Positions 26,431-45,601 of a DNA stretch of 64,000 nt are shown here, one piece after another. The position numbers and the translations under genes were made by a program. Positions within the stretch are counted from its first letter, which is position 1, and every line of letters starts with the position of its first letter. Source of the stretch: a virus; the IMG/VR virus record IMGVR_UViG_3300025096_000006, positions 1 to 64,000 of that record; one strand, written 5' to 3'. The notes beneath the pieces are model-generated. The model saw only the letters and a list, made by a program, of their open reading frames with translations, made no database searches and was not told the DNA's origin.

Positions 26431-26673
26431 CTAATTTCTTCTATTGCGCCTTTCTTGTGCTCTTCTCATTTTTTGTTGATCTCTCAAGCGTTTCTTAGCT
26501 GCGCGAAGTCTTTTTTCTTTTTTAACAATAGAAGGTTTTTTATAGTACCTGCGATCTTTTATTTCTTCTATGATTCTATTCTTTTTTACTTTTTTCATGA
26601 ATTTTCGAATCATTTTTTCATGATTGCCGCGGCATTCGCGCGCCGTAACTTGAGTATTTATTTTCTTCGCCAT
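26431..26673 (-). CDS. rpsU: Phage-encoded ribosomal protein bS21
   Basis: EKMIRKFMKKVKKNRIIEEIKDRRYYKKPSIVKKEK matches the bS21 core (E..LRRFKK......EE.R.R.YYEKPS). Confidence 0.85.
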   Translation of the reverse strand: MAKKINTQVTARECRGNHEKMIRKFMKKVKKNRIIEEIKDRRYYKKPSIVKKEKRLRAAKKRLRDQQKMRRAQERRNRRN

Positions 26674-26680
26674 TTTATAC

Positions 26681-27088
26681 CTATTTCATCGCTTTCCAAA
26701 TTTGAGAAGCATTTCCCATAATTGATGATATATCAACACCCGGATCATTAGAGTTTCCAAGATCCGCATGACCTGATTGAGAGCCCTCATCCGCAATAGG
26801 CTGTGTATTCTCAAATAGATTAACTCCATTATATGCATCGGAATTAATAGAATTCATCAGCTTGGCGCGGTGTTCTTTTAATTTTACCCTTGACTCAGCA
26901 GATTTGCGCTGAATATGTGAATCATCTGTGACTGTTGTCTTGGGAGCGCTTTCAACTATAAGAGCACCTTGCATTCCTTTGGCAACCTCAACAACAACGC
27001 TAGATAGAAGCCCTTCCTCTAGAAGGACTTCATGTATGCATTCTTTTACGAGAGGCTTAATCAGCTCTTTTAGATCTGATTTCTTCAT
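26681..27088 (-). CDS. Hypothetical head-module protein
   Basis: 135 aa; N-terminus MKKSDLKELIKPLVKECIHEVLLEE resembles the shared leader family. Confidence 0.7.
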   Translation of the reverse strand: MKKSDLKELIKPLVKECIHEVLLEEGLLSSVVVEVAKGMQGALIVESAPKTTVTDDSHIQRKSAESRVKLKEHRAKLMNSINSDAYNGVNLFENTQPIADEGSQSGHADLGNSNDPGVDISSIMGNASQIWKAMK

Positions 27089-27091
27089 ATA

Positions 27092-29380
27092 TCACCCTTT
27101 AAGTATACCAGCAATTTCACCCCAACGAGAGAAAGTGCTTAGCTCTTCTGCAAGCTGCTTAACCGTCTCAGCTTCCTCTTCCTCTTCTTCTTCTGCAGCT
27201 TGAGCTGCGGCACCAGGACCGCCTTTAACTGTTTCGGCTGCAGCTAGCTGGGCATCTGCACCAGGGCCGCCTTTAACTGTTTCGGCTGCGGCGGCTTGAG
27301 CTTCTGCTCCGGGTCCACCTTTAACCGTTTCAGCTGTTTCGGCGCCGGCTTCTGCAGGGCGAAGAGCCATGCTAGACTGAGGATCAAGTTTAACCTTGTG
27401 CTGTCTAAGCATTTGAACAATTGCAGCTTTCGCCAATTCTTTTTGAGCTGGGTCCTGAATTTGTTCTAAAGCCTCTAGTGTTTGTACAAGAGCGATCATT
27501 TCTCTTTTTGCCTCTTCAAGAACATTGAACCCAGCAGCAGTTAGATCCGAACGCAGACCCTTCAATAGGCGACTCATATCTCCGCCTTTAATGCCACCGC
27601 GTGCAAATTGTGATTGCATTCCCTTGCCTGCTTTGCCGCGGAAAACATAAATATCGCCGCGCTTTGCTGCTGTTTCTGGATCTACTTCGGGTCCGGTTGG
27701 TCCAGGTCCAGGAGTGGTTGGTCCAGGTCCAGGAGTGGTTGGTCCAGGTCCAGGTCCAACAGGTCCAGGTCCAACAGGGGGCTGATCGACGCCAGGGGTT
27801 TCAGTTCCAGGTCCAGGAGGCTGATCAACACCAGTTTGCTGACCGGTTTCCGGATCAACGCCGGGAGGAGGCTCTTCTTTTCCTTTGGTTTTTGGGGGAA
27901 TTTCCTGCTCGCCACCCTTGAGTGGAGACTTTGCCTCGTCGGCATCCGGAAGGGGAGCCATTACTTTAAGCAGATCGCCTAGTTGCTGGGTGCGTGAAGA
28001 TTTATACATCTTCCATCTACCAACAGCCAAAGCAGCGACTCCAGCAGCTACACCAGCGATACCCAACATTGTGGCGGTAGACATTCCGGCGCTGGCAGCT
28101 TGGGCGCCGGCGCTGGCAGCGGTGCCAGCCGTGCCTGTACGACTTCGTGCGGGCTCTTCATCTTCATAGGGCGCCTGCTCGGATGTGCCGGGCTCTTCAT
28201 CTTCATAGGGCGCCTGCTCGGATGTGCCGGGCTCTTCATCTTCATAGGGCGCCTGCTCGGATGTGCCGGGCTCTTCATCTTCGCCGGGGTCGGGATCGGG
28301 AGCCGTAGAACCCATTTTGGCGGTGCGGCTCGTGGGCTCATCATCTGAGGGAGGTGCTTCATATCTGCCTTGCTTCTCCGCGTCAGACATCAGCTGATCT
28401 TCGGATGCATCGTCACCGAAGCCGGCGTCTTCTAGGCGCTCCATGGCATCAGATTGCCTGCGGTTTAGATCGCCACCTCTTCCTTGTTTTCTCGTCTGAG
28501 TTCTTGCAAGCTGATCATACATGCGCTTGCCTCTCTTAACTTGTCTAACTGTCTGGCGTCCTTTCTGAATTGTATTCCAAATATCGAAGGCGGCACCAAC
28601 GCTGATCTCGTTCATAAGCTCGTTCTCAGTAAGTGGCTCCACGCTCCAGTCGCGATCTCTTCGTAGCATTTCGTTAGTATGTTTGTAAATATCAGCCAAC
28701 TGATACTCTCTTGCATGGTCAACCACTTTGCGCAATGCATTGATAACGCTGTTAGCTGCAACAGGATCATAGTCTCCTTTTTGAGCCGCTTCTAGGACGG
28801 AATCATACAATTGTGCAATCTCTGTGGCTGCATCTTTGAACTCTTGTGTACCTTTAGTATTTGGCCATCCGGGGTACTTATCCTGCAAACCCTTAACAAG
28901 AGATTGCACGCCTTGGTCAGCGGATGCATCAAGTGCTGCTTGCAATTCTTCTTGAGCCTGTTGAGTGCGGCGCCCTCTACCAAACATAGAGCCGCCTTTT
29001 TCTAAAGAACCAGCCTTGGATAGAAAGTGTTTAAATCCTTCCCAGCGACTATAACCGCCACCTTTTCCGCCTTCAGGCGCCTCTTCACCTTCTGCGCCCT
29101 CGGCGCCTTCTTCACCTTCAGGAGGAGCTTCGGCTTCTTCATCTTTTCCGCGACCAAACATTTTGCCAACGCCGCGCTTAAGAGCATCCCAGGCTCCTTC
29201 GTCAATTGAATGAATATCTACAGGATATCCTACTCTATTTTCAAGCAAATTTTTGATAAAAAGACTTTCAAAATCTTTTCTTTCGGCTGCAAGTTTTTTG
29301 TGCTCCTGCAGTATCTTCTTATTAAGTTTGTACTGTGCTTTTTCTTCTTCAATAATTCTTCTTAAAGTTTTTTTATCCAT
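27092..29380 (-). CDS. Large low-complexity protein, probable internal head/ejected protein
   Basis: Starts MDKKTLRRIIEEE; several tandem repeats; one hydrophobic segment (MLGIAGVAAGVAALAVGRW); ends RWGEIAGILKG, like the scaffold C-terminus; directly downstream of the prohead protease. Confidence 0.65.
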   Translation of the reverse strand: MDKKTLRRIIEEEKAQYKLNKKILQEHKKLAAERKDFESLFIKNLLENRVGYPVDIHSIDEGAWDALKRGVGKMFGRGKDEEAEAPPEGEEGAEGAEGEEAPEGGKGGGYSRWEGFKHFLSKAGSLEKGGSMFGRGRRTQQAQEELQAALDASADQGVQSLVKGLQDKYPGWPNTKGTQEFKDAATEIAQLYDSVLEAAQKGDYDPVAANSVINALRKVVDHAREYQLADIYKHTNEMLRRDRDWSVEPLTENELMNEISVGAAFDIWNTIQKGRQTVRQVKRGKRMYDQLARTQTRKQGRGGDLNRRQSDAMERLEDAGFGDDASEDQLMSDAEKQGRYEAPPSDDEPTSRTAKMGSTAPDPDPGEDEEPGTSEQAPYEDEEPGTSEQAPYEDEEPGTSEQAPYEDEEPARSRTGTAGTAASAGAQAASAGMSTATMLGIAGVAAGVAALAVGRWKMYKSSRTQQLGDLLKVMAPLPDADEAKSPLKGGEQEIPPKTKGKEEPPPGVDPETGQQTGVDQPPGPGTETPGVDQPPVGPGPVGPGPGPTTPGPGPTTPGPGPTGPEVDPETAAKRGDIYVFRGKAGKGMQSQFARGGIKGGDMSRLLKGLRSDLTAAGFNVLEEAKREMIALVQTLEALEQIQDPAQKELAKAAIVQMLRQHKVKLDPQSSMALRPAEAGAETAETVKGGPGAEAQAAAAETVKGGPGADAQLAAAETVKGGPGAAAQAAEEEEEEEAETVKQLAEELSTFSRWGEIAGILKG
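28150..28282. repeat. 39-bp tandem repeat, 3 full copies plus a partial (EDEEPGTSEQAPY)
   Basis: cgggctcttcatcttcatagggcgcctgctcggatgtgc repeated identically. Confidence 0.95.
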
Positions 29381-29988
29381 TATTCAAAATCTCCTAAAAT
29401 ATCGTTTAAAACTCTATTAATCCTGTCTGCCTTGGTAAAGACTGTGTTGTTATAATTTTTTGCTTCTTGCATCATAAATGCATTTGGCGTTGATGGCTCT
29501 GATACAAAATCAAAACAAATTAGCTGAAAATCATCCTCGACCATAGTTTGCCCGGCGCTTTCTGTCACAGAGCCCATGCCACGAGAGGAAATGCCAAGTT
29601 TAACTCCAGAATCAACTAGGCTTTTAAGAACTTTTCCTGACGGTGTGTCGAGTACTTTTACTTTTCCCATAACGCTCTTATTGTCCCACCACACATCCGT
29701 CACAAGATGAGATGCATTTTTAAGATTAATAACGGAATCCTCTGGGTGGTCTAGTTCTCCTAGGGCTCGGCGTTCTTTTACGAGCTTCTGATAGTTTTTC
29801 ATTTCGCGCATCAGCACTCGATGCGGATATACCCTGCCATTGCCGTTTTGAATATCTGCTTCTTGAAGCTTGCCTGACAAGATCATGCCGCCGCTTGCCA
29901 CATATCTTTTTTCCTCTTCAGTCAAAAGATCTTGACAAACGCCACCTTCGCATAGTTCATAATATTCTCGTAAGAGCTTCTTACCCAT
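29380..29988 (-). CDS. Prohead core protease (T4 gp21-like)
   Basis: NGNGRVYP, ALGELDHP, NASH, LDTPSGKVL, GISSRGMGS, DFVSEPSTPNAF. Confidence 0.95.
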   Translation of the reverse strand: MGKKLLREYYELCEGGVCQDLLTEEEKRYVASGGMILSGKLQEADIQNGNGRVYPHRVLMREMKNYQKLVKERRALGELDHPEDSVINLKNASHLVTDVWWDNKSVMGKVKVLDTPSGKVLKSLVDSGVKLGISSRGMGSVTESAGQTMVEDDFQLICFDFVSEPSTPNAFMMQEAKNYNNTVFTKADRINRVLNDILGDFE

Positions 29989-35272: not shown

Positions 35273-35686
35273 TTATTCAAACAGTTCTTCTAAAATTAGC
35301 CTATCATCTGAAGTGGGCAAGGACCAGTCATTTGTAAATCCGGTCCAGTCGATTTCGCATATATATTTTCTTTGACCCCGAAGAAGCGACTCTACCAATC
35401 TATGATACCCATCAACAACGAGAAACTTGTTTTCTTCTTTAATCCACACAACACTTAATGGTCGGTGGGATGATTTGCTTTTAATGCCTTCCGTAAAGTG
35501 ACGATAGGCTGCAAGGATTCCGTAATCAGAATTTCCTTTTTCTACAATCAAATCATTATAATGCAATTCGCAAACTTCAGGGATCTTATCAAAAAGATAT
35601 TTCTCAGATCTCTCTTCTGCCTGTTCTACAGTAAATCTAATTTCTTCTAAAATTAGCTGCCTTAACTTGGATTTAGTAAGGCGCAC
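35273..35686 (-). CDS. Leader-family protein with ParB/sulfiredoxin-like motif
   Basis: N-terminus MRLTKSKLRQLILEEI; PLSVV...FLVVDGYHRL is a ParB-N-type motif. Confidence 0.6.
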   Translation of the reverse strand: MRLTKSKLRQLILEEIRFTVEQAEERSEKYLFDKIPEVCELHYNDLIVEKGNSDYGILAAYRHFTEGIKSKSSHRPLSVVWIKEENKFLVVDGYHRLVESLLRGQRKYICEIDWTGFTNDWSLPTSDDRLILEELFE

Positions 35687-35689
35687 TTT

Positions 35690-36259
35690 TTAAGATTCCT
35701 TTTTGCGAGTATCGTTTTTTGGTCTCTTTCCTTTCCAGCCGCCTAATTCAACAAACTTTTTCCAAGCTGCTTCATGGCTAGCATGAACCGGATCTACATT
35801 TGCTTCGCCAACTAGTCCGACGCTATCTAATCCACCGATCTTATAGTGACACTTGGCTGTTACCCAGCTTCGAATTCTAGATGAGTTTTCAACCAAAACC
35901 TCTATTTCGCCTTCTTTTGTTAGGCTAACCGATTTACCGGTAATTCTACGATACTCTTTCTTTAAATAAGAAGCAATATCAGCAATTTTTTGCTCAATCT
36001 CGCCTTCAAAGCCGCTATCGTGCACCTCTTTAAGCTGCACTTCTGAATGATACTTAATACACATCATAGGTCCATAAAACGCAACCCCAAATCCATCTAG
36101 AACTCTTTTATCTAAGATAAGATCACCTTCTTCTCTCTTTAACCCAATCTCTAATAGTTCTCCATCTTCAGTATACGCGCCATCATATGCGTTGGCTGCA
36201 GCCTGAGCTAAACCACTTACGATATCTGAGACAGATGCTGCTTCTTGTTTTTTAGCCAT
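35690..36259 (-). CDS. Hypothetical protein
   Basis: 189-aa ORF tightly packed with its neighbours. Confidence 0.75.
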   Translation of the reverse strand: MAKKQEAASVSDIVSGLAQAAANAYDGAYTEDGELLEIGLKREEGDLILDKRVLDGFGVAFYGPMMCIKYHSEVQLKEVHDSGFEGEIEQKIADIASYLKKEYRRITGKSVSLTKEGEIEVLVENSSRIRSWVTAKCHYKIGGLDSVGLVGEANVDPVHASHEAAWKKFVELGGWKGKRPKNDTRKKES

Positions 36260-36648
36260 TATGACTCTTCTCCTTCATTTGGTCTCCATCCTTTTTGCCA
36301 TCTTTCTTCTCTGCCTTCGACAAATTGAATGTAACACTTATTGCAACAATCAAACTTGACTAAGCAAACATCATCCATAGAACTCTTTGGGAAGAACCCG
36401 CAGACAGGACAACATTTTAAAGATTCTCTATTAAGTAGTTTTTTTGAGATCTTAATACCATTAACATCTACTTTTTCTTGCCACTCGCCAATCTTGTTTT
36501 GTTTTTTGTAAAATTGTTTAGATTGCTTGAGATATTCTTTTTCCTTCGTCTCGTCCCAGTTTCCTTTAGGGTTTTGAACCGCTTCTTTGCCATACTTTTC
36601 TACAATAGCTTTTTCAATTGCTGCAATCTTGTTGAAATCTTTACTCAT
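36259..36648 (-). CDS. Hypothetical Zn-finger protein
   Basis: CPVC...CCNKC; start probably ATG 36648 (MSKDFN), overlapping the upstream gene end. Confidence 0.65.
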   Translation of the reverse strand: MSKDFNKIAAIEKAIVEKYGKEAVQNPKGNWDETKEKEYLKQSKQFYKKQNKIGEWQEKVDVNGIKISKKLLNRESLKCCPVCGFFPKSSMDDVCLVKFDCCNKCYIQFVEGREERWQKGWRPNEGEES

Positions 36649-37057
36649 CAAATGCCCTATATGCGCCATAAGTCGCAGCTGCGCCGGCGGCTATACCGCC
36701 AACAAACCACCACCACTTATTAGAAGGCGCTTGTTTCAACATTGCTTCTTGCAGGGCGACAATTTCAATGTCTTTCTGCTCGATCCGCAAATCATATTCT
36801 TTAGTAAGCGCGTCCAATCGAATCTGAAAATTTTGTCGCTCAAGCTGAAACTCAGTTGCCTGAACATCGATCCGATACTCTACTTCTAAATCGCAATCCA
36901 TCCGATATTCTTCAGGAAGCACCAATAATTCTGCGATACCACGCTTGTTAAACAAAACACCCTCAAAGGGTGCTGGCTCATTCTCTCCAAGAATGGCAAA
37001 TTGCGGAGGCTCACCAGCGTGAGCCACCATCGAAAATAATAGCGCTTTAAGGAACAT
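36641..37057 (-). CDS. Secreted/membrane coiled-coil protein (possible spanin component)
   Basis: Signal-peptide-like N-terminus ending AHA, coiled coil, C-terminal hydrophobic WWWFVGGIAAGAAATY. Confidence 0.45.
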   Translation of the reverse strand: MFLKALLFSMVAHAGEPPQFAILGENEPAPFEGVLFNKRGIAELLVLPEEYRMDCDLEVEYRIDVQATEFQLERQNFQIRLDALTKEYDLRIEQKDIEIVALQEAMLKQAPSNKWWWFVGGIAAGAAATYGAYRAFDE

Positions 37058-37460
37058 ACTGGAATCCGAATGTATCTGTTACTTGTTCTGCGAGTTCTTC
37101 TTTGTTTTCTGTGAACTGTCTGCGGTTGTCGATCGTTGTTTCAATTTCAACAATTCGTTCTTCAACCACCACTTCAATCTCATCTCTGTCTTGCTCATAT
37201 TGCCTCTCCAATAATTCTAGTGCATCACGATAGGTTTGCAATGCTTGTTCTTTTCTTTGTAATTCTTCTGCATGTATATCTTGTAAACCGTCGATCTGGT
37301 TCTGAAGAGACTGCTGGCTAGTTTGATAGGTGTTCTCAAGTTGTTTATAATCATAGCGCATTTTTCCAATAACTGTAAGCAAAAGAATAACAATTGTTAT
37401 TTCTTTCCAGTTTTTCTTTGCGACGTAAACAACTTTAAGCCAGTCAACTTTAATCATCAA
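37047..37460 (-). CDS. Putative inner-membrane spanin (Rz-like)
   Basis: N-terminal TM (ITIVILLLTVIG) then a long coiled coil; directly after the holin-like gene. Confidence 0.5.
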   Translation of the reverse strand: MMIKVDWLKVVYVAKKNWKEITIVILLLTVIGKMRYDYKQLENTYQTSQQSLQNQIDGLQDIHAEELQRKEQALQTYRDALELLERQYEQDRDEIEVVVEERIVEIETTIDNRRQFTENKEELAEQVTDTFGFQYVP

Positions 37461-37651
37461 ACACCTTTCATTCTAGCAATACCATCGATAACAGCTTGAC
37501 CGCCAATGTAGATTGCAGAGATCATAACCCAATCGCTGGATGCTAAATCATAAAATGCGAATAGACCTGTAGCTGTTAGCCAAACCATAAATTTACGAGA
37601 AATTGCTTTCTCAACTAATCTATCTAATTTTCCTTGTACATAAACCATCAT
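37457..37651 (-). CDS. Putative holin
   Basis: About 64 aa from ATG 37651 (AAGGA SD; MM dual ATG); SRKF motif followed by two hydrophobic segments. Confidence 0.55.
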   Translation of the reverse strand: MMVYVQGKLDRLVEKAISRKFMVWLTATGLFAFYDLASSDWVMISAIYIGGQAVIDGIARMKGV

Positions 37652-37704
37652 TTGTTTTTCCTTTCTTGTAAATAGTTTTTTATTTCTTCCTTGGATTTGG
37701 ATCT

Positions 37705-38805
37705 TCACGGATCCGTAAGCGGGAATCCGCCGCCTGTAGCAGCATATGCGGCTCGTCGCTCTTCTGGAGTTGGGTGGCGCGCGTTGCCGCCAGGACCGCC
37801 TAAGCCGCCGCCGGCGGGACGTGGACCGGCATCGTGTTGTTGAATATTGCCTGTAGTATTTAAATAATTGTAGAAGGCAGCTAGCGCATCCAATATTGTT
37901 TCTTCCTCGTCATTATCTGCCTGAATTGTTTCCATAGCGCTGCGAAGATCTCCTTTGTATTGGCGCCACATATTTTCCAGTTGTTTAATTTGACTAGTCG
38001 TGCGTCTCATTGGATTGGTAATTACGCCATCAACACCCGTCATAGCTTGCTGGCGCAACTCGGCGGGGTCAACATAGTCACCGGCTTCAAACTCTTTCAC
38101 AGTTTCCTTGGCATCCCATGCATCCTCGCGCGTCACAGTAGGATCGCCAGGATCAGCCTCAAGTTTTGCCATAATCTCACGGGCACGGTCGATACTCATG
38201 CCGCGGACTTCGTTTAAAAGTTCGGTACGCATATGTTGCTCAATTAGATAAAGATAATATTCTTCTTGAACAATGTTCTCAGCCACTTGCACATCTTCGG
38301 GATGAGGATCCATTTTTTTCAGCTGAATGGCCATGTTGATAATATCTTCTTGAGAATATCCAGCCTTCAACAAGGCTATTAACATTTTTTCAATTTCATA
38401 GCTCATGTCTCCAATCTGTGCGCGCATTGCCGCGATCTGCCTATCGGGAGCTAGACCTTCCGAAAATTCCCCGTGACCTTCATTAAGCATTTTATTAATT
38501 TCTTCCTTAATAATCTCGGTTAACTCAGCTAAGCTCTCTTTAAATCCCATCACGGGGCGATCGCCTTCGCCGCCTCCAGGCTGATACTCTGTGGGGAACT
38601 CTTCTTCTTCTGGCTCGGGGCTGGGCTCTGAGACATCAGCGTCATACATTTCATCATACACCGCGCCCATAATGTCGCCGGTCACATTTGGTGGAGTGCC
38701 CTGCAGTAGTGCAACAATAGTACGCTGGGCATCTTCGGCGCTCACCTCCTCTTTGATAACTTCCTCGGCTATAATCTCACGTAATCTTTTAAGGGTAATT
38801 TTCAT
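37705..38805 (-). CDS. Leader-family acidic protein
   Basis: Starts MKITLKRLREIIAEE; internal echoes LTEIIKEEINKMLNE and NIVQEE. Confidence 0.75.
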   Translation of the reverse strand: MKITLKRLREIIAEEVIKEEVSAEDAQRTIVALLQGTPPNVTGDIMGAVYDEMYDADVSEPSPEPEEEEFPTEYQPGGGEGDRPVMGFKESLAELTEIIKEEINKMLNEGHGEFSEGLAPDRQIAAMRAQIGDMSYEIEKMLIALLKAGYSQEDIINMAIQLKKMDPHPEDVQVAENIVQEEYYLYLIEQHMRTELLNEVRGMSIDRAREIMAKLEADPGDPTVTREDAWDAKETVKEFEAGDYVDPAELRQQAMTGVDGVITNPMRRTTSQIKQLENMWRQYKGDLRSAMETIQADNDEEETILDALAAFYNYLNTTGNIQQHDAGPRPAGGGLGGPGGNARHPTPEERRAAYAATGGGFPLTDP

Positions 38806-38806
38806 C

Positions 38807-39037
38807 TTAGTATTTTGCCTGTATTAATTCTGCCACAATACTAGCTAATGCCTCTGGTCCCAAGCCAGAATCTCCAGTAAGGGCTTCAATCTGAGTTCTA
38901 ATATCCTTGGCTAAGGACTGGGCTGCAGCCGGAATTTCTTTTACAGCTTGCATAACTTTTTCGCCCTCTTCTTCTTCTTTAAGTGCCTTAAGTTCTTCTT
39001 TAATAATTTGTTTAAGCTGTGTTTTTGTTATTTTCAT
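38807..39037 (-). CDS. Leader-family small protein
   Basis: True start ATG 39037 (TAATG overlap): MKITKTQLKQIIKEE. Confidence 0.75.
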   Translation of the reverse strand: MKITKTQLKQIIKEELKALKEEEEGEKVMQAVKEIPAAAQSLAKDIRTQIEALTGDSGLGPEALASIVAELIQAKY

Positions 39038-39267
39038 TATTTGCATCCTTCTGGTAAATGTGATTTTAGCGTCTCTTTGTAAGTATTTAGTGGCGGCTGT
39101 TCCCATTCAATATGTGGGCAATAATCTTTATGATCTTGTTTGTCTTGTAAGTATAGCTCTAATGCTAAAGCATCTCGCTCCATATCATTTAAATCTGATT
39201 TTAATTTATCTATATCAATCGGCAGCACAACAGCAGCAAATAAGATACCCGCAAGAATAACTTTCAT
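39037..39267 (-). CDS. Small secreted/membrane hypothetical protein
   Basis: N-terminal hydrophobic stretch MKVILAGILFAAVVLP; two Cys. Confidence 0.65.
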   Translation of the reverse strand: MKVILAGILFAAVVLPIDIDKLKSDLNDMERDALALELYLQDKQDHKDYCPHIEWEQPPLNTYKETLKSHLPEGCK

Positions 39268-39521
39268 TGTGTTACTAAGCCCTCAATTCTATCAAGTATA
39301 TCCCTGAGATGTGTAAGCTCGCTCTCGACTCTAATTAATGTTCTCGTTGCTTCTTCCTGTTCGTCAACCTGTTCCTCAAGTTCTGCTACCTGTCGCTCCA
39401 AGTCTCCCATATCATTTCTTAATTGAGATACTTCTACATTTACAGACCACACCCAGCCAGCAAGAGGCATAATAATTGCCCCTAATACAAGTGTAAATAT
39501 TTTCCACATATCTGGTTTCAT
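39264..39521 (-). CDS. Single-TM coiled-coil protein
   Basis: TM IFTLVLGAIIMPLAGWVW followed by heptad repeats; ATGA-coupled to the tubulin gene. Confidence 0.7.
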   Translation of the reverse strand: MKPDMWKIFTLVLGAIIMPLAGWVWSVNVEVSQLRNDMGDLERQVAELEEQVDEQEEATRTLIRVESELTHLRDILDRIEGLVTQ

Positions 39522-40657
39522 GTCGCTAATCCATTCATACTTAGTATCGCAATCAATCCAGGCACATTCTTACGCACGTAAACACCAGAGAATAGTGTCT
39601 CGCATCTACCGCCGACATAAGCGATTGCTGACTCAATGTTTTTACTAACTCTTGGATCTGCCACCATTTCCTCAGACGCCACTAAGATTAGGGAGCCGGC
39701 TGCAGCTTTTCCTTTAGGTGGTGGGCAGGCAGACCTATTCATACAGTTGTGTAGGATCACCGATCCAAGCTTTCCAGTATTTGGATCTTTTATCATGGTT
39801 GAGCCGAGAAAAGCTCTCCCGTCGTTGCCCAAGCATGTTTCCAGATCTTTACTATCAAAAGATTGGATCGGTGAATCCTCGGTGGAGAGTTTTAGCACCT
39901 GGGCGAACGACTTAGCAAATTGTGTGTTGGCGACAGGATACATGCCGAGCATGCCGATCCTACCGCGAAGCAAGCGCGTTGCGCGCTCGTTATCTAGAAT
40001 GATGTGTGGGTGCTTGGCAACATCGTTTGCCAATGTCAGCGCATTTCTAGCGATTGTGGGGTTAAGGTTTTCCTGTGCTGTTGGCCAAGAGACAATATAT
40101 ACTACCTTTCCGGAAGACTGAACAGACTTCATATAACGTTCGAATACCGGGTGAAGTGCAGTCACAGAACTACCGGTTCCGCCGCCTCCGCCAGCAAGAA
40201 CAAACAGCCAGTCAACCTTTCCAAGTTTAATGCGCAATGCGTCTTCTACGATTGCACCGTTAGTAGAGAAAACCTCTTTACCGTAATCTACATTCTTCCC
40301 GATGCCGTCACTGTCGGGAATAAGAACAACGTGATCTTCTTCCACGTTCTTCGGGATGTCCTTGCCTGTGGAATTCACAAGCAGAGTCTTATTAAAGCCA
40401 AGCTCTAAGAAAGCATTAGCCATCTTGTTTCCGCCCCCACCAACACCAACAAAGCCTACGTTAATAGACGAAGGAGCAGTGTTTTCTGGAAGGAGATCTT
40501 CATCAGAGTATTCCATCTGTAGTCCGAAGTCCTCAACCATTCCAAAATCTTCTGCTGCGACTTCTTCGTGATAGCTGTCTTTCTCCTGATTAAAGGAGGG
40601 TGGTGGTTCTGCGGGAGGCAAAAAATCAAATTCATTATCGTTGTCTTTATTGCTCAT
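39518..40657 (-). CDS. Tubulin/FtsZ-family GTPase (PhuZ/TubZ-like)
   Basis: GFVGVGGGGNKMA (T1 loop), DGIGKN, tubulin signature AGGGGGTGS, ILDNE, FDSKDL (T7-like); ~60-aa acidic N-terminal extension. Confidence 0.9.
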   Translation of the reverse strand: MSNKDNDNEFDFLPPAEPPPSFNQEKDSYHEEVAAEDFGMVEDFGLQMEYSDEDLLPENTAPSSINVGFVGVGGGGNKMANAFLELGFNKTLLVNSTGKDIPKNVEEDHVVLIPDSDGIGKNVDYGKEVFSTNGAIVEDALRIKLGKVDWLFVLAGGGGGTGSSVTALHPVFERYMKSVQSSGKVVYIVSWPTAQENLNPTIARNALTLANDVAKHPHIILDNERATRLLRGRIGMLGMYPVANTQFAKSFAQVLKLSTEDSPIQSFDSKDLETCLGNDGRAFLGSTMIKDPNTGKLGSVILHNCMNRSACPPPKGKAAAGSLILVASEEMVADPRVSKNIESAIAYVGGRCETLFSGVYVRKNVPGLIAILSMNGLAT

Positions 40658-41202
40658 TGTTGCTCCATTGCAAATTCTTCTTCGGCCTGTGCGAGAAGTC
40701 TATTTTGTCTTTCGTTGTTAGGAGATGCTGTCACTCTCACGCCGGGCATGCCTCTCATAATGCCTTTTACCATATCGATATATTCTCTATCAGGGTCTCT
40801 CTCGGCTTGTCGCTTCTCCCAAGCTTCTCTATCAACATCGCTCATTCCGCCTCCATAACTTTTCTTAGGCTTTTTTCGATACGGAGATGCAATCTCGGGT
40901 TCGCCTTGCGAATCAAAAACAGCGCCATAATCGTGACGACCATAGGACTCTTCAAGCTCTTCTTCAGAAGCAGGTGCACGCTTGAAAAGAGTAGCCAACT
41001 GATTAATCAGAGCAACTCCTGCGGTTCCAATGGTTGCCGCGAGCACTTCGGGCTGTCGAATAAAATGTTGTGCTGCATCGGCCACTAGCTGGAGATTTTC
41101 TGGCGTAACATTTTCAAGCCCTTCGTCCAACTCTCGTGACTCCATGGTCAATTCAAGCTCTTCTTTGATAATCTGTTTAAGTTGGGATTTTGTGATTTTC
41201 AT
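40654..41202 (-). CDS. Leader-family protein
   Basis: True start ATG 41202 (ATGA overlap): MKITKSQLKQIIKEE. Confidence 0.75.
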   Translation of the reverse strand: MKITKSQLKQIIKEELELTMESRELDEGLENVTPENLQLVADAAQHFIRQPEVLAATIGTAGVALINQLATLFKRAPASEEELEESYGRHDYGAVFDSQGEPEIASPYRKKPKKSYGGGMSDVDREAWEKRQAERDPDREYIDMVKGIMRGMPGVRVTASPNNERQNRLLAQAEEEFAMEQQ

Positions 41203-41441
41203 TTCTTCTTTTCGCAATAGCCTTTCAAACCTCTAGAGAGATCATAGCTTTTGGATTTGGAGCCTTTAGACTCTTTCGCGTATCTCCATTTTCCACCTTC
41301 GCTTTCGCATTTCTCTATCTTGCCTGGGTCATCTTGACCCGAGGCGCCACCAGCGGGCTGATCGTGTGGATCTGTTGCTTCCAGCACCGCTGCTAGTTCT
41401 TCCTTGATGATCTGTTTAAGGTGTGATTTTGTGACTTTCAT
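41199..41441 (-). CDS. Leader-family small protein
   Basis: MKVTKSHLKQIIKEE; C-terminal CESEGGKW...GYC. Confidence 0.75.
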   Translation of the reverse strand: MKVTKSHLKQIIKEELAAVLEATDPHDQPAGGASGQDDPGKIEKCESEGGKWRYAKESKGSKSKSYDLSRGLKGYCEKKK

Positions 41442-44400
41442 TATTGGTTAACCCTTGCGTATCCGCGTTTTTTGTCTATAACAATTTGCATATCAACGCA
41501 GTCTTTGAGCGAATCAAGGTGAGAGATAAGCAAAACGTTCTTAAAATACACTTTAATTAGTTCCAAGATTCGAATAAAACCCTCCATATTTTCTTCGTCT
41601 AGTGCTGTTCCTGGCTCATCAAGAATGAATAAGTCACTCTTGGGTAACGAAGACACAGACAGAAGTGCCAACCTGATAGCCATCGCTGCCATTGTTTTTT
41701 CGGCGCCTGACGCCATTTCAATCGGGCGCTCATCATATTGCGGGTGCTTGATAAAAATGTCAAACTTGTTGCCAGAGCTTTCAAAGAAAATCTCAAACTC
41801 TACAATGTTAGCGAGCACCTTAGCAATCTCTTGATTGATTACTGGAATTTTCTTCTTGATAACATCGTAAGCGATTCCGTTAGGGTGCATGCACCGCATA
41901 AACAAGTCGTATGCCGCAAATGATGATCTAAGATCGTGGTATTCTTGCTTTTGCTCTCGCAGTGTTTCTACACGTTGTTCGTAGGATCCCACAAGTTTAA
42001 CAAGGTCGAGTGTCTCTTCTTCGCAAGATGTAATCTTCTTGTTCTTGCTCTTGATGCTTTTCTCCAGATCGCGCTGCTCTCCTAAGAGCTTCTCAAGGTT
42101 TTCGATAGCTTCCTTGTTGTCTTCATACTCGGTAATTTTTAATGAGATATCCTTAAGGGCTAGCTCGATTTTTGACCTCACGGTCTTATTGCGCTCGCGT
42201 TCTAAATCAAGCTGTGTTATTTCTGCTTCAAGCTTGGCAACCATGCCTGTTATACGCGTGTGTTCCATAAGCTGTGTAAACACATCCGATGGATTTAATG
42301 CTGCTAAATCAACCACCGTGTTCTGTAATTCATACTGAACCAGTTCTTTGCTGGCTACAGCTAAATTAGCCTCTCTAACAAACTTATTGTCAGAGCAAAA
42401 TTTGCAATCCGGATCGTATTCGTGATCATGAAGTAATGCTTCTTTTTTTGCAATTTCATTCAGCTCTTCATTAAGTTTCTTTTCTTTTTCGTTAAGCAGT
42501 TCGATCTCGCGTTGAAGCTTCATAAGTTTAGTGATATTTACGTGTTCAAGCTTGCCTCTACAATTTTTAAGCACACGCTTCTTTCTTTCAATTTCTTTTG
42601 ATTGCTCTTTGATCTGTTCCATAAGCGTTGCGGCTTTTTTAGTTTTGCCTTTCTGCTCTTCGCGAAGCTTGGCAATATCAATAAGTTCATTAGGAATTGC
42701 TGAGATTTGCGCATCTAGGGCACCGAGGGTATCCTGGAGCATAGTCAACTCTTCTCTAAGTTCAGCGCAGAAATACTTATTAGTCTTTACACTGTCTCGA
42801 TGATCTTCAAGTGTTTCTGTCGCAGCTTCGATCTCCTCGTTATAGTCTCTGTCTTCGTGTTTCTTTAGCATCACCTTCGCTTCAACAGAATCATCCTTTG
42901 CCATTCGAAACTTCTTCTCAAATACTTCAAGGTCCAAGAACTTAGCGATAATCTCCTTGCGCCTAGTTGAACCTTCATCAATAAACGCCAGGGCGCCGTG
43001 TTGTGAAGCCAGCGAAGAAACCATAAAATCGTCAATCGTTCCAAAGTGCTTGCGAATGTTTGCGTCTGTTTCGTTACGAGTTGTGCCATTCAGAGAAATT
43101 ATCTCATCAGTGATGTGATCGCGCTTCTCAAAATTTAAATCAGTCTTGGCTTCAAGTGTTTCAACACCCTTCAATCGCTTTGTATATTTTGTAGATTCTC
43201 GGCTAATTGTATACGTGGCATTGTTGGCTTCAATCGTAAGTCTTCCTCTTCCACTATCTCTATTCTGGTTAATGACATTGAGGTTCTTTCGTTCATTTTT
43301 TGAAGTTGTATTAAAAAGAGTATACAAAGCAGCATCGATAATAGAACTTTTGCCGCTGAAATTCTTTCCGAAAATGCCAACAATACCATTAAGCCTATCA
43401 AAATTGACAGCATTCTTTTCCCCATAATTAAAAAGATTATCGAACTCAAATGACTTTAGTCTCCAATTTACATTGCGCGCTATCTCTTCTTTCTCTTCGA
43501 TAATTTTGTTGTAAGTGCGATTAAGTTCATAAACTTTTTCCATAGTATCAGAAGGCGCCTGGAAGTCTTTAAGATACTCTGAAATGAGTTCCTCTTGGAT
43601 CTTTGGATCTCGCAAGTTCTCTGACTGCAGTCCGTTGGTAATATCCTCTACATTTCCGCGTTGACCGCTGGCACGATTCAGAAACGAAATGCTTTCTGGC
43701 TTGAAGCGGTGTTTGGCAATATCCATCGCTCTGCGCATTACATCGAGCGGTAAGTTGTTGTTACTCACAAGGCGAAGTCTTGCGCCAGTTGGCACGTCAA
43801 TCTTGCGAGGCATGCGCCCCTTTAACGTAAGCGGGATTGTGAAGAACGGCTTTGGATTCTTGAGCACAATCGGCTCAATATCCCAATCATCCTTTGATTT
43901 GATGTCCCATATAAGAATGCCCTTGTCGTTAGTCTCGCCGTGATTCTGCTGAACAGTTGAGCCTGCGTACCATACGCGACCCTCTTCGTCCAAGAACTGA
44001 CGCCTGTGAATATCACCAAGCATTGAGAAGTCGTGGTCATCAAAGATTGTGATCGTGTCTTCGCCGTTAACCATTGTCCAGCCAACATCAGTTTTGCAGT
44101 TGCTGATTGAGCCATGGTAAAGTGCGATGTTGATCTTGTCGGGATTGGTTGGCTTAATCCATTGCTCACGATCAAACACAGAAAGCACGTTCAAACAAAA
44201 CTTGTCATCCAAATGTGTTTCACCGGAGTCTTTTAGCAGATGCAGAGCTGGCAAGTTTAGCGCATCTACAATCGGCGTAAGCGCATCTTGGCGGCTGCTG
44301 TTTTTTAGATTGCCGTCATGGTTGCCCAAGATAATATATGTGGGCGCAATCGTCGCTAAGTTACGGAAGAAGTCAGAACACATCTCCACAAACTCTGGTG

Positions 44401-44557
44401 AGATTTGTGTTTTGGTGTGCGCGATGTCGCCGCAGTGAACAATGTAGTCGACTTCTTGTTCTCGTAATGTTTCGTATAATTGCTCAAAAACAATTCTATA
44501 CTCGTAATGATACTTCAAATTTTTGATATGAGTATCGCTTATGTGTGCAAACTTCAA
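41441..44557 (-). CDS. Fused Mre11/SbcD nuclease plus Rad50/SbcC ATPase (gp47-gp46-like)
   Basis: Metallophosphoesterase motifs SDTH, GDIAH, GNHD, YHG, GDIH; Walker A GKNFSGKS; coiled coil with CKFC hook; signature ASGAE; Walker B FILDEP; ISH. Confidence 0.92.
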   Translation of the reverse strand: MKFAHISDTHIKNLKYHYEYRIVFEQLYETLREQEVDYIVHCGDIAHTKTQISPEFVEMCSDFFRNLATIAPTYIILGNHDGNLKNSSRQDALTPIVDALNLPALHLLKDSGETHLDDKFCLNVLSVFDREQWIKPTNPDKINIALYHGSISNCKTDVGWTMVNGEDTITIFDDHDFSMLGDIHRRQFLDEEGRVWYAGSTVQQNHGETNDKGILIWDIKSKDDWDIEPIVLKNPKPFFTIPLTLKGRMPRKIDVPTGARLRLVSNNNLPLDVMRRAMDIAKHRFKPESISFLNRASGQRGNVEDITNGLQSENLRDPKIQEELISEYLKDFQAPSDTMEKVYELNRTYNKIIEEKEEIARNVNWRLKSFEFDNLFNYGEKNAVNFDRLNGIVGIFGKNFSGKSSIIDAALYTLFNTTSKNERKNLNVINQNRDSGRGRLTIEANNATYTISRESTKYTKRLKGVETLEAKTDLNFEKRDHITDEIISLNGTTRNETDANIRKHFGTIDDFMVSSLASQHGALAFIDEGSTRRKEIIAKFLDLEVFEKKFRMAKDDSVEAKVMLKKHEDRDYNEEIEAATETLEDHRDSVKTNKYFCAELREELTMLQDTLGALDAQISAIPNELIDIAKLREEQKGKTKKAATLMEQIKEQSKEIERKKRVLKNCRGKLEHVNITKLMKLQREIELLNEKEKKLNEELNEIAKKEALLHDHEYDPDCKFCSDNKFVREANLAVASKELVQYELQNTVVDLAALNPSDVFTQLMEHTRITGMVAKLEAEITQLDLERERNKTVRSKIELALKDISLKITEYEDNKEAIENLEKLLGEQRDLEKSIKSKNKKITSCEEETLDLVKLVGSYEQRVETLREQKQEYHDLRSSFAAYDLFMRCMHPNGIAYDVIKKKIPVINQEIAKVLANIVEFEIFFESSGNKFDIFIKHPQYDERPIEMASGAEKTMAAMAIRLALLSVSSLPKSDLFILDEPGTALDEENMEGFIRILELIKVYFKNVLLISHLDSLKDCVDMQIVIDKKRGYARVNQ

Positions 44558-44590
44558 GTTCCCTCCAGACGTAGTTATGCCGTTAGTATT

Positions 44591-44619
44591 ATAATACCCT
44601 ATGCGGGATCTGTTGTCAA
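44591..44619 (-). promoter_or_regulatory. Sigma70-type promoter for the SbcDC fusion
   Basis: TTGACA (44619-44614), 17 nt, TATTAT (44596-44591), with an overlapping TATAAT; GGAGGG SD downstream. Confidence 0.7.
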
Positions 44620-44626
44620 GACTTTT

Positions 44627-44767
44627 TTATAGAAAGAGTGCCCCGATCGCTCCATAAAGCATCATTCCCATAACAAACGCGCCCATTCCAAGAATCCCCA
44701 ATATCTTTAAAAGCTCTAAATCGCTTATGCCTTTCTTAAAAAGATATCGTGAGAGTTTTCTTAACAT
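44627..44767 (-). CDS. Small membrane protein (46 aa)
   Basis: Manual translation MLRKLSRYLFKKGISDLELLKILGILGMGAFVMGMMLYGAIGALFL*; starts 2 nt after the upstream stop. Confidence 0.55.
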   Translation of the reverse strand: MLRKLSRYLFKKGISDLELLKILGILGMGAFVMGMMLYGAIGALFL

Positions 44768-44769
44768 TA

Positions 44770-45285
44770 TTATCTTCTTGACATACTCTTGCTATAGCCG
44801 CTACGGGCTGGTGCGCCTTCATATCCGCCGGCGCGTTGACCAGATGGGGCAAGATTCCCTATTGCGTCAATCACCAGGGCGACTTTCTTGTCTATCCATT
44901 TGGGAGCGGTGACCATTAGATTTCCAATAGTTTGAGTAATTGTGTTGGTGACTCCTTCAGCTTCGAGTGCATCACCTTTACTATCCCAGTAATCCTCAAT
45001 ATCTCCCATATTCATAGCTTGTTTCAGAGCATGTCCCATATTAGAATCCAGAAGCTCCGCAAAATCCGTTCCTTCTAAAGATGATGGTGTATAATTACCG
45101 TCTCTTATATCTGCCATATAGTGCTGAAGAAATTTCATACCATCTCCACCCATCTCAAAATTGGTCCGATCGTCTCCTCTTGGTTTTCCCACCATGGTGC
45201 GCATCGTATCCATAAAACCTTCGTCTAGGCTTTTTTCAATCTCTTCTTTGATGATCTGCTTAAGTTGTTTCTTTGTGATTTTCAC
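44770..45285 (-). CDS. Leader-family protein
   Basis: GTG 45285 with AAGGA SD gives (M)KITKKQLKQIIKEEIEKSLDEG. Confidence 0.7.
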   Translation of the reverse strand: MKITKKQLKQIIKEEIEKSLDEGFMDTMRTMVGKPRGDDRTNFEMGGDGMKFLQHYMADIRDGNYTPSSLEGTDFAELLDSNMGHALKQAMNMGDIEDYWDSKGDALEAEGVTNTITQTIGNLMVTAPKWIDKKVALVIDAIGNLAPSGQRAGGYEGAPARSGYSKSMSRR

Positions 45286-45319
45286 TTCATTATTCCTTAT
45301 GTCGCTAATCCATTCATAC

Positions 45320-45601
45320 TTAGTACTCTTCTTCTTCTCGATACAGAAGGGGTCCCTGCGGACTAAGCATCGTATCCCAGAATTGAGCCACATCACCGCG
45401 GTCTCCCTTGGTGTTAATAGCGTCCACTATCATGTCATAAGCTTCTTTGCCTGAGAGCGCACCGGGGCCCATTGAATTCATGATCTCGCTGACTTCCTGC
45501 GCCATTTCCATAGCATCGCCACGTTCGCGGATGCTTTCAATGCTGTAGGCATCATACTCTTCCTTGATAATCTGTTTAAGTTGTGATTTTGTGATTTTCA
45601 T
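45320..45601 (-). CDS. Leader-family small acidic protein
   Basis: MKITKSQLKQIIKEE; AGGAG SD. Confidence 0.75.
   Translation of the reverse strand: MKITKSQLKQIIKEEYDAYSIESIRERGDAMEMAQEVSEIMNSMGPGALSGKEAYDMIVDAINTKGDRGDVAQFWDTMLSPQGPLLYREEEEY

What the first reader, a model, noticed from the sequence alone, without database searches (positions are those of the whole stretch)
35273..45601. Family of unrelated cargo proteins sharing a MKITKSQLKQIIKEE leader: a candidate capsid-targeting/protein-injection system
Seen: at least seven genes begin with the same ~15-aa amphipathic leader and then diverge completely: 45601 MKITKSQLKQIIKEE, 45285 (V)KITKKQLKQIIKEE, 41441 MKVTKSHLKQIIKEE, 41202 MKITKSQLKQIIKEE, 39037 MKITKTQLKQIIKEE, 38805 MKITLKRLREIIAEE, 35686 MRLTKSKLRQLILEE. 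Weaker versions start the genes at 29380 and 27088, next to the prohead protease. Cargoes include a ParB-like motif, a Cys-containing mini-domain and acidic helical domains. Established: T4 internal proteins IPI-III carry a short N-terminal capsid-targeting sequence that gp21 removes after Glu at (I/L)-x-E sites, and they are injected with the DNA; IPI* blocks the GmrSD restriction enzyme. Inference: the leader ends in I-x-EE and a gp21-like protease is encoded here, so this may be an address tag loading a variable set of effectors (for example anti-defence proteins) into the head. It could also serve as a protein-delivery tag.
Basis: partly seen in the sequence, partly recalled or inferred. 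Interest (0 to 1): 0.85.

Follow-up and report, generated by a model that had tools for sequence, protein, structure and literature searches.

The report
Shared capsid-loading tag on phage proteins
Seven otherwise unrelated small genes of this uncultured marine T4-like phage begin with the same 16-residue peptide. It most likely works like phage T4's capsid-targeting sequence: it loads a protein into the head and is then cut off by the head protease. The same tag heads over 13,000 protein clusters in public sequence data, but none of this has been tested at the bench.

Summary
Seven minus-strand genes (35273-45601) start with M-K-I-T-K-x-Q-L-K-Q-I-I-K-E-E-[L/I] and then diverge. No other copy exists in the 108-kb genome, and chance expects none.

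Selection acts on the peptide, because synonymous codons vary freely. In 1.8 Mb of related viral contigs, 382 of 385 copies sit on a start codon. They head about 200 BLAST-distinct, mostly acidic, Pfam-less cargoes in variable slots between core genes. A leader profile finds 13,362 protein clusters among 1.84 billion.

The phage is a distant T4 relative with a gp21-type (S77) protease. The leader has an invariant I-x-E, which is the gp21 cleavage motif. The capsid protein has L-R-E exactly where T4 gp23 is cut.

Best reading (about 0.55): a T4-style capsid-targeting propeptide on a very large, fast-changing set of internal proteins. Presence in virions, cleavage, injection and anti-defence roles are untested.

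The two "weak" copies beside the protease are only resemblances, and the ParB-like cargo is unconfirmed. The principle is known from T-even phages, so this is a new variant at much larger scale. The cultured Flavobacterium phage immuto carries a related tag. This scan has noted analogous tags on other phage DNA.

The parts
45320..45601 (-). Leader gene, 93 aa, canonical leader, acidic cargo (pI 4.1)
   Evidence: 46 bits; cargo homologues 64-93% identical in metagenomes keep the leader
44770..45285 (-). Leader gene, 171 aa, GTG start, canonical leader followed by a second L-D-E
   Evidence: 42 bits; AGGA 8-10 nt upstream of the GTG
41199..41441 (-). Leader gene, 80 aa, small basic cargo with two Cys
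   Evidence: 45 bits
40654..41202 (-). Leader gene, 182 aa; with 41441 it fills the variable slot between the Mre11-Rad50 fusion gene and the tubulin-like gene
   Evidence: 44 bits; the same slot holds 0-2 different leader genes in 26 relatives
38807..39037 (-). Leader gene, 76 aa; its start overlaps the stop of the upstream gene by 1 nt
   Evidence: 40 bits
37705..38805 (-). Leader gene, 366 aa, divergent leader subtype conserved in many relatives; a second, internal half-leader lies at about 38461-38517
   Evidence: 21.5 bits at the N-terminus; 15.9 bits internal
35273..35686 (-). Leader gene, 137 aa, GTG start, divergent leader, cargo with a D-G-Y-H-R motif; inserted between a conserved 189-aa gene and the large terminase gene
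   Evidence: 21 bits; two homologues of the cargo (P0023, P0024) begin just after the leader and lack it
29380..29988 (-). Prohead protease, T4 gp21 / Peptidase_S77 family; its own N-terminus has L-R-E ending at residue 8
27092..29380 (-). 762-aa repeat-rich protein just after the protease; its N-terminus resembles the leader core (L-R-R-I-I-E-E-E); poorly conserved among relatives
   Evidence: not significant by the HMM
26681..27088 (-). 135-aa conserved head-module protein with a leader-like N-terminus and the highest [LI]-x-E density (5.2 per 100 aa); candidate prohead core protein
16064..17194 (-). 376-aa acidic helical protein just upstream of the capsid gene (the T4 gp22 position); candidate scaffold, with L-Q-E ending at residue 7
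   Evidence: no Pfam or PHROG hit
14201..16027 (-). Major capsid protein (Gp23 family); predicted maturation cut after L58-R59-E60 (nt 15848-15856); 5 of its 11 [LI]-x-E motifs lie in the first 60 residues
31689..33668 (-). Portal protein (T4 gp20 type), used to collect relatives

Best explanation
The 16-residue leader is a capsid-targeting propeptide of the T4 type. As an amphipathic N-terminal helix, it docks newly made proteins onto the scaffolding core of the assembling prohead. After the shell closes, the gp21-type protease cuts it off after the invariant Glu14 (I12-x-E14), and often again at a second hydrophobic-x-Glu around residues 18-22. This leaves the cargo free inside the head, to be expelled with the DNA. 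The tag is portable, so the lineage keeps swapping small cargo genes in and out of a few variable slots. SHOWN: the tag, its modularity, its strict N-terminal position, peptide-level selection, the protease, and T4-like cut-site motifs in the capsid protein and core proteins. INFERRED: binding to the core, cleavage, residence in the virion, and ejection. SPECULATIVE: that the cargoes are anti-defence or host-takeover effectors.
For: (1) The phage is T4-like: portal phrog_213, capsid PF07068 Gp23, sheath, terminase, and an S77 protease 34% identical to T4 gp21 over 144 aligned residues, including the His- and Ser-containing segments it shares with T4. (2) In 307 leader proteins, I-x-E ends at residue 14 in every one (the collecting pattern required E or D there; E was always found). 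A second [LIVMF]-x-E ends at residues 20-24 in 54%, against 9% for windows further along. In T4, processing depends on CTS residues 8 and 10, i.e. I-x-E (PMC9026906). (3) The protease's specificity looks conserved. The capsid protein's L58-R-E60|S aligns with T4 gp23 L-T-E65|A, resembles the L-R-E-S at the N-terminus of T4 gp24 (the cut there is from memory), and is L-[RK]-E in 7 relatives. The capsid propeptide, the 135-aa protein and the scaffold-like protein are the richest in [LI]-x-E, and the protease itself has L-R-E at residue 8, as T4 gp21 has L-I-E at 9 (PMC9026906). (4) The leader resembles the N-termini of two proteins encoded right after the protease. T4's CTS likewise resembles the N-terminus of its scaffold gp22. 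(5) In two relatives, three canonical leader genes sit between the protease and the 135-aa gene, inside the head module. (6) The tag is modular: 387 leader ORFs, 327 unique proteins and about 200 cargo families in 1.83 Mb; 382 of 385 on ATG or GTG; cargo homologues exist without the leader; syntenic slots hold different cargoes. (7) Selection is on the peptide: Leu8 uses all six codons and Ile12 uses ATT 155, ATC 136 and ATA 24 times. (8) One cargo is a YkuD L,D-transpeptidase with no signal peptide. That enzyme family acts on peptidoglycan outside the cytoplasm, which fits delivery by ejection. (9) T-even internal proteins are described as a diverse set sharing only the CTS (PMC3012670).
Against: There are no virion, cleavage or ejection data for any member, and no close cultured relative was found in the phage collection. 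The leader shows no significant sequence similarity to the T4 CTS. Cargoes are mostly acidic (median pI 5.0, 73% below 6), whereas T4 internal proteins are basic (PMC9026906). Only 3.6% of leader genes have the candidate late-promoter motif within 100 nt upstream, against 5.2% of other genes. Four of the window's leader genes lie downstream of a sigma70-like promoter at 44588-44619. The residue after the proposed cut is Glu, not the Ala or Ser seen at the T4 sites examined here. An E/K-rich amphipathic helix yields hydrophobic-x-Glu triplets easily, so the motif argument is weaker than it looks. The two structure models were of low confidence.
Confidence: 0.55

Rival explanations
1. The leader is a common docking or oligomerisation helix for a partner outside the capsid. 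The partner could be a host hub such as RNA polymerase or the ribosome, the phage's tubulin-like filament, or the leaders of sibling proteins. On this reading it assembles or localises a changing set of small early proteins in the infected cell.
For: It is predicted as an amphipathic helix, at low confidence. Four leader genes are co-oriented with, and downstream of, a sigma70-like promoter, the Mre11-Rad50 fusion gene and a tubulin-like gene. Cargoes are acidic and small, like many early host-takeover proteins. Database proteins carry 2-4 leader copies in one chain, 57 of 148 internal copies not starting with Met, so the motif can function away from an N-terminus.
Against: This does not explain the invariant I-x-E with a clustered second site. 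It does not explain the resemblance to the N-termini of head-module proteins, or leader genes lying inside the head module. The strict N-terminal position in 382 of 385 cases is also unexplained. No candidate partner co-varies with the tag.
Confidence: 0.2
2. All leader proteins are one very old paralogous family, and only the N-terminal helix is still recognisable. The 'unrelated cargo' would be extreme divergence, not modular shuffling.
For: One single-linkage cluster joins 82 of 317 cargoes, including three from the window. Many cargoes are low-complexity, acidic and helical, and fold poorly.
Against: Cargo lengths run from 46 to 524 aa. Cargoes include a YkuD enzyme and a FliG_C domain. 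Cargo homologues occur without the leader. 171 of 200 families are singletons by BLAST. The leader is 93-100% conserved while the sequence just after it drops to background.
Confidence: 0.1
4. The conservation serves the nucleic acid, as a translation-initiation enhancer or a recombination handle for cassette exchange.
For: A-rich 5' codons favour initiation. A 26-bp exact repeat links two cassette borders (39520-39545 and 45299-45324), which points to recombination between cassettes.
Against: Synonymous sites vary freely at every conserved residue and the upstream DNA is not conserved. Amino-acid identity stays at 93-100% through residue 15.
Confidence: 0.03

Closest known systems
Capsid targeting sequence (CTS) of phage T4 internal proteins IPI, IPII, IPIII (and the Alt propeptide), removed by the gp21 prohead protease
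   Same: A short N-terminal tag on otherwise unrelated small proteins. It starts M-K and ends in I-x-E. The phage encodes an S77 protease. The tagged genes are scattered among non-structural genes. The tag resembles the N-terminus of a core or scaffold protein (PMC9026906, PMC5694885).
   Different: No detectable sequence homology. It is 16 residues plus a frequent second site, against 10-19 in T4. There are 7 tagged genes per genome against 3-4, and cargoes are mostly acidic rather than basic. Targeting and cleavage are proven in T4 and untested here.
Hyperplastic internal-protein loci of T-even phages (Repoila et al. 1994, as cited in PMC3012670; CTS-like proteins in T2 and T6, PMC9026906)
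   Same: Cargo genes differ between close relatives at syntenic positions, while the tag and the flanking core genes are kept.
   Different: The scale differs: about 200 cargo families in 195 loci and 13,362 clusters in the global protein set. Several slots exist per genome, including inside the head module.
Processed ejection and inner-body proteins of giant phages (phiKZ, 201phi2-1, SPN3US), cut at [A/S/G]-x-E by a gp21-related protease
   Same: Propeptides are removed after Glu, with several sites per propeptide. The SPN3US paralogues gp53 and gp54 share an identical 15-residue N-terminus (PMC5694885).
   Different: The motif has a different P3 residue (here I or L, as in T4). The protease family is S80 rather than S77. 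The shared tag there covers a few paralogues, not hundreds of unrelated cargoes.
Related tag in cultured Flavobacterium phage vB_FspM_immuto (Immutovirus)
   Same: A T4-like head module with 39% portal identity. At least three proteins start M-K-K-S-[QE]-L followed by a similar I/L-rich core; the best scores 20.5 bits with the leader HMM. A fourth such protein lies between portal and protease.
   Different: There are fewer copies and the tag has diverged. No virion proteome was found in the literature held here.
Cargo-loading peptides of encapsulins
   Same: A short portable peptide suffices to load unrelated cargo into an HK97-fold shell (from memory).
   Different: Those peptides are usually C-terminal, are not cleaved, and do not deliver cargo to another cell. 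This is an analogy only.

Membership tests
T4-type capsid targeting sequence (CTS) / internal proteins | Short N-terminal peptide shared by otherwise unrelated proteins of one phage | tested here: met
   Seven genes in the window. 382 of 385 copies in relatives sit on start codons. About 200 cargo families.
T4-type capsid targeting sequence (CTS) / internal proteins | Tag ends in the prohead-protease motif (L/I)-x-E | tested here: met
   I12-x-E14 is present in 307 of 307 proteins (the collecting pattern allowed E or D at 14). A second site ends at residues 20-24 in 54%, against a 9% background.
T4-type capsid targeting sequence (CTS) / internal proteins | Phage encodes a gp21-family (Peptidase S77) prohead protease | tested here: met
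   PF03420, E 2.9e-30; phrog_207, E 1.7e-54; 34% identical to T4 gp21 over 144 aligned residues.
T4-type capsid targeting sequence (CTS) / internal proteins | Sequence homology of the tag to the T4 CTS (MKTYQEFIAE) | tested here: not met
   Only M-K at the start and I-x-E at the end are shared (one search compared). This is a functional analogue or a highly diverged form, not a recognisable homologue.
T4-type capsid targeting sequence (CTS) / internal proteins | Tagged proteins are present in the virion with the tag removed | not testable with these tools
   No virion proteome exists for this lineage. No cultured phage with the canonical tag was found in the phage collection. The literature search for immuto found no proteome.
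T4-type capsid targeting sequence (CTS) / internal proteins | The tag alone suffices to load a foreign protein into the head | not testable with these tools
   This needs a bench experiment.
T4-type capsid targeting sequence (CTS) / internal proteins | Basic, DNA-associated cargo expressed with the head proteins | tested here: not met
   Median cargo pI is 5.0 and only 13% are basic. The late-promoter-like motif is not enriched upstream. This is not a strict requirement, since cargoes in T-even phages vary.
ParB-like nuclease domain (claimed for the cargo at 35273-35686) | Significant match to a ParB/Srx profile or fold | tested here: not met
   Pfam gave none. phrog_33277 scored only E 0.073. 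PDB sequence and profile searches gave none. The AlphaFold model had pLDDT 37.

The most novel reading that the evidence does not exclude
The leader marks an ocean-wide, fast-evolving library of more than 13,000 protein clusters that an abundant marine T4-like lineage (probably infecting Bacteroidota-like hosts) loads into its capsids and injects with the DNA. Some occur as multi-module polyproteins that the head protease cuts apart at each internal leader. If so, injected phage effectors could be read from sequence alone, and the leader could serve as a portable protein-packaging tag for non-model phages.
Probability: 0.3. Interest if true: 0.8.

Novelty: new variant of a known kind. Interest (0 to 1): 0.62.

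Why it matters
Internal, injected phage proteins are the first phage products to meet host defences. Outside T4 and a few giant phages they cannot be recognised from sequence. This tag would label thousands of candidates in a lineage that is very common in marine metagenomes: more than 3,400 homologues of its scaffold-like protein and over 590 portal loci. That would turn a large block of viral 'dark matter' into a testable class. It would also show that the capsid-targeting principle is ancient and general in T4-like phages rather than special to T-even phages. A cultured relative with a related tag (Flavobacterium phage immuto) makes the test feasible. If the tag is not a capsid signal, a 16-residue peptide under this much selection on so many cargoes still needs an explanation.

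Tried and rejected
1. Nucleic-acid-level conservation was rejected: synonymous codons vary at all conserved positions and the upstream DNA is not conserved.
2. The idea that the 137-aa leader protein upstream of the terminase is a small terminase was rejected. That position is a variable slot, holding no gene or different tagged genes in relatives, and the conserved neighbour is the 189-aa gene (a crude method).
3. ParB-like cargo: not confirmed.
4. Structure models: the 35686 family gave pLDDT 37 and the 45601 family gave 58. Both were too poor for fold searches, so none were run.
5. The ESM Atlas look-up for the 366-aa protein gave only unnamed viral clusters.
6. Pfam on 140 cargo representatives gave 2 informative hits.
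7. Searches for the tag in cultured phages (tblastn with 22 aa, blastn with 63 nt) gave nothing meaningful. A profile search of the immuto and Mel-JY01 records found one weak hit each. Reading the immuto genome directly found the related tag.
8. Late-promoter test: the CTATTTA[TA] motif is strand-biased (12 against 2) and lies upstream of structural genes. It is not enriched upstream of leader genes, so expression timing stays open.
9. A full-text search for the leader string found no paper.
10. Context of the multi-leader proteins: the search for related loci for P0160 found nothing.
No complex, contig-context or expression data were obtained.

Full report
WHAT IS THERE. The window is the first 64 kb of a single 108,230-bp contig, and every gene examined lies on the minus strand. 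The contig is a distant T4 relative. It encodes a gp20-type portal (31689-33668, phrog_213, E 3e-71) and a large terminase (33677-35263). It also encodes a Peptidase_S77/gp21 prohead protease (29380-29988, PF03420, E 2.9e-30), a Gp23-family capsid protein (14201-16027, PF07068, E 1.7e-73) and a tail sheath. The nearest cultured phages are Microcystis phage Mel-JY01 and Flavobacterium phage immuto, at about 40% portal identity.

Seven genes start with the leader at exactly the stated coordinates, and none occurs elsewhere in the genome. The degenerate DNA pattern with up to 3 mismatches hits five times, against 0.00 expected. A leader HMM scores five copies at 40-46 bits and the two divergent ones (38805, 35686) at about 21 bits. 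The two 'weak' copies next to the protease (29380, 27088) are not significant by the HMM. However, the 762-aa protein matches the core L-[KR]-x-I-I-x-E-E pattern at residues 6-13. That pattern otherwise hits only the seven leader genes and one non-coding frame in 64 kb. The N-terminus of the 135-aa protein is conserved in 46 relatives.

THE LEADER IS A PORTABLE PEPTIDE MODULE. In 195 related viral loci (1.83 Mb) I found 387 leader ORFs, 327 of them unique. With the first residue left free, 382 of 385 matches start on ATG or GTG. Conservation is 85-100% at most of residues 1-15 (positions 6, 7, 10 and 13 are looser), 56% Leu (95% L/I/V/M) at 16, and near background beyond. Selection is on the peptide: Leu8 uses all six codons and Ile12 uses ATT, ATC and ATA 155, 136 and 24 times, while the upstream DNA is not conserved. 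By BLAST the cargoes fall into about 200 families, 171 of them singletons. One loose cluster of 82 includes three window genes. Cargo lengths run from 46 to 524 aa (median 120). Cargoes are mostly acidic and soluble, and only 2 of 140 representatives gave an informative Pfam match: a YkuD L,D-transpeptidase and a FliG_C domain. Two homologues of the 35686 cargo start right after the leader and lack it. In the syntenic slot between the Mre11-Rad50 fusion gene and the tubulin-like gene, 26 relatives carry 0, 1 or 2 leader genes of 80-524 aa with different cargoes. Of 114 loci found through the leader pattern alone, 98 also hold homologues of this phage's core genes, so the tag is essentially a property of this lineage. 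A 30-position leader profile finds 13,362 cluster representatives at E <= 0.001 among 1.84 billion.

WHY A CAPSID-TARGETING, PROTEASE-REMOVED PROPEPTIDE IS THE BEST READING. In T4, all internal head proteins reach the scaffolding core through a 10-19-residue N-terminal CTS. Targeting depends on residues 4 and 7 and processing on residues 8 and 10, the I-x-E. gp21 removes the propeptides of gp23, gp24, Alt and the internal proteins, and shreds gp22, gp67 and gp68 (PMC9026906, PMC5694885). The T-even internal proteins are described as a diverse set sharing only the CTS (PMC3012670). Six points here match that picture.

(i) The protease is a clear gp21 homologue, 34% identical over 144 aligned residues, and keeps the His- and Ser-containing segments it shares with T4.

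(ii) The leader has I12-x-E14 in 307 of 307 proteins (the collecting pattern allowed E or D at 14). A second hydrophobic-x-Glu ends at residues 20-24 in 54%, against 9% for windows further along. Multiple sites within one propeptide are usual in T4-type systems (PMC5694885).

(iii) The capsid protein's L58-R-E60|S aligns with T4 gp23 L63-T-E65|A in a BLAST alignment and resembles the L-R-E-S at the N-terminus of T4 gp24 (the gp24 cut is recalled from memory). It is L-[RK]-E in all seven relatives at hand. Five of the capsid protein's eleven [LI]-x-E motifs lie in its first 60 residues. The 135-aa protein (5.2 per 100 aa) and the scaffold-like 376-aa protein (3.7 per 100 aa) are the richest in the motif. 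The protease's own N-terminus has L-R-E ending at residue 8, where T4 gp21 has L-I-E at 9 (PMC9026906).

(iv) The leader resembles the N-termini of the two proteins encoded just after the protease. T4's CTS likewise resembles the N-terminus of its scaffold gp22, sharing [F/L]-I-A-E-A.

(v) In two more distant relatives, three canonical leader genes sit between the protease and the 135-aa gene, inside the head module.

(vi) One cargo is a YkuD enzyme with no signal peptide (L114:6258-7055). That enzyme family acts on peptidoglycan outside the cytoplasm, which fits delivery by ejection. This is a single case.

WHAT WEAKENS IT. Nothing shows that these proteins are in virions, are cut, or are injected. 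The tag is not recognisably homologous to the T4 CTS. Cargoes are acidic, whereas T4 internal proteins are basic. A strand-biased motif, CTATTTA[TA], occurs 12 times on the coding strand and twice on the other. It lies 25-45 nt upstream of many structural genes (scaffold-like, sheath and others), so it is a plausible late promoter. One copy at 46075 could drive the unit containing 45601 and 45285. Across relatives, however, the motif is no commoner upstream of leader genes (3.6%) than of other genes (5.2%). Leader genes 41441, 41202, 39037 and 38805 lie downstream of a near-consensus sigma70-like promoter at 44588-44619. Whether early transcription would count against the reading is unclear (I recall, unchecked, that T4 internal-protein genes are also read early). 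A K/E-rich amphipathic helix also produces hydrophobic-x-Glu triplets readily. Both AlphaFold models were of low confidence, showing only that the leader is predicted helical.

RIVALS. A docking or oligomerisation helix for a partner outside the capsid is the main alternative (0.2). It fits the early-looking context and the multi-copy proteins. It does not explain the cleavage-motif pattern or the links to the head module. Extreme divergence of one paralogous family (0.1) is contradicted by the enzyme cargoes, the leaderless homologues and the length range. A tag for another enzyme (0.07) lacks any candidate enzyme nearby. A nucleic-acid role (0.03) is contradicted by the synonymous variation.

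AN UNEXPECTED EXTENSION. The best-scoring database proteins carry 2-4 leaders in one chain, spaced a median of 146 residues apart. Of 148 internal copies in the top 150 hits, 57 begin with a residue that cannot be a start codon, so these are true in-frame fusions. The window's own 366-aa protein has an internal half-leader. If the leader holds a protease site, such chains would be polyproteins cut into modules inside the head. I could not obtain their genomic context.

COMPARISON AND NOVELTY. Functionally this matches the T4 CTS and internal-protein system and the hyperplastic internal-protein loci of T-even phages. It is not a sequence homologue of the T4 tag, and it differs in tag length, a frequent second site, cargo charge, copies per genome and above all scale. 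I rate it a new variant of a known kind. Flavobacterium phage immuto carries a related tag (M-K-K-S-[QE]-L plus a similar hydrophobic core) on at least three proteins, and on a fourth between portal and protease. That gives a cultured system for the decisive virion-proteomics test. Earlier notes of this scan report analogous shared leaders in other T4-like and giant phages; I did not test those.

VERDICT. Confidence in the capsid-targeting reading is about 0.55. Confidence that the cargoes are injected effectors is about 0.3. Interest is 0.62.

Noticed in passing
window 26431-26673 (-): An 80-aa, very basic protein inside the head module is a ribosomal protein S21 homologue (PF01165, E 4e-9, above the curated cut-off). 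Mel-JY01 has an annotated RpsU at the syntenic position after its protease.
   Followed up: partly
window 39520-39545 and 45299-45324 (-): An exact 26-bp repeat. One copy is the 3' end of the tubulin-like gene. The other lies just upstream of the GTG-start leader gene at 45285. This suggests past recombination between cassette borders.
   Followed up: partly
window 46075, 26427, 22313, 17233, 14124, 10102, 5151 and others (-): The motif [A/G]CTATTTA[T/A] occurs 12 times on the coding strand and twice on the other in the genome, mostly 25-45 nt upstream of structural-gene starts. It is a candidate late promoter, different from T4's TATAAATA.
   Followed up: partly
window 44588-44619 (-): A near-consensus sigma70-like promoter (TTGACA, 17 nt, TATTAT) lies upstream of the Mre11-Rad50 fusion gene. 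Two others of the kind lie outside the window, near 102096 and 107662 of the genome.
   Followed up: no
window 41441-44557 (-) and 39518-40657 (-): A 1038-aa fusion of an Mre11-like phosphoesterase with a Rad50/SMC-like ATPase (PF00149, PF02463). Downstream lies a tubulin/FtsZ-family protein (PF00091, E 2.8e-7, just below the curated cut-off), followed by small single-pass coiled-coil genes.
   Followed up: no
proteins P0145-P0294 (database hits): Many proteins carry 2-4 tandem leader-plus-cargo modules in one reading frame. A third of the internal leaders do not begin with Met. Their genomic context is unknown.
   Followed up: partly
window 27092-29380 (-): The 762-aa protein after the protease has threefold tandem peptide repeats (an acidic 13-residue unit and a Gly/Pro/Ala-rich unit), a Pro/Gly-rich stretch and one hydrophobic segment that looks transmembrane. 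Relatives have at this position either no gene or a 145-914-aa protein with a different conserved N-terminus rich in W-S-S-F.
   Followed up: no
L198 (immuto) 3180-3728, 18006-18305, 24615-24842: Phage immuto has a second shared N-terminal motif (M-E-N-x-F-D-[LI]-[KH]-K...) on three otherwise different proteins. One of them is encoded right after the prohead protease.
   Followed up: no
L114:6258-7055 (-): A leader-tagged YkuD L,D-transpeptidase domain protein without a signal peptide, in a contig with at least five leader genes.
   Followed up: partly
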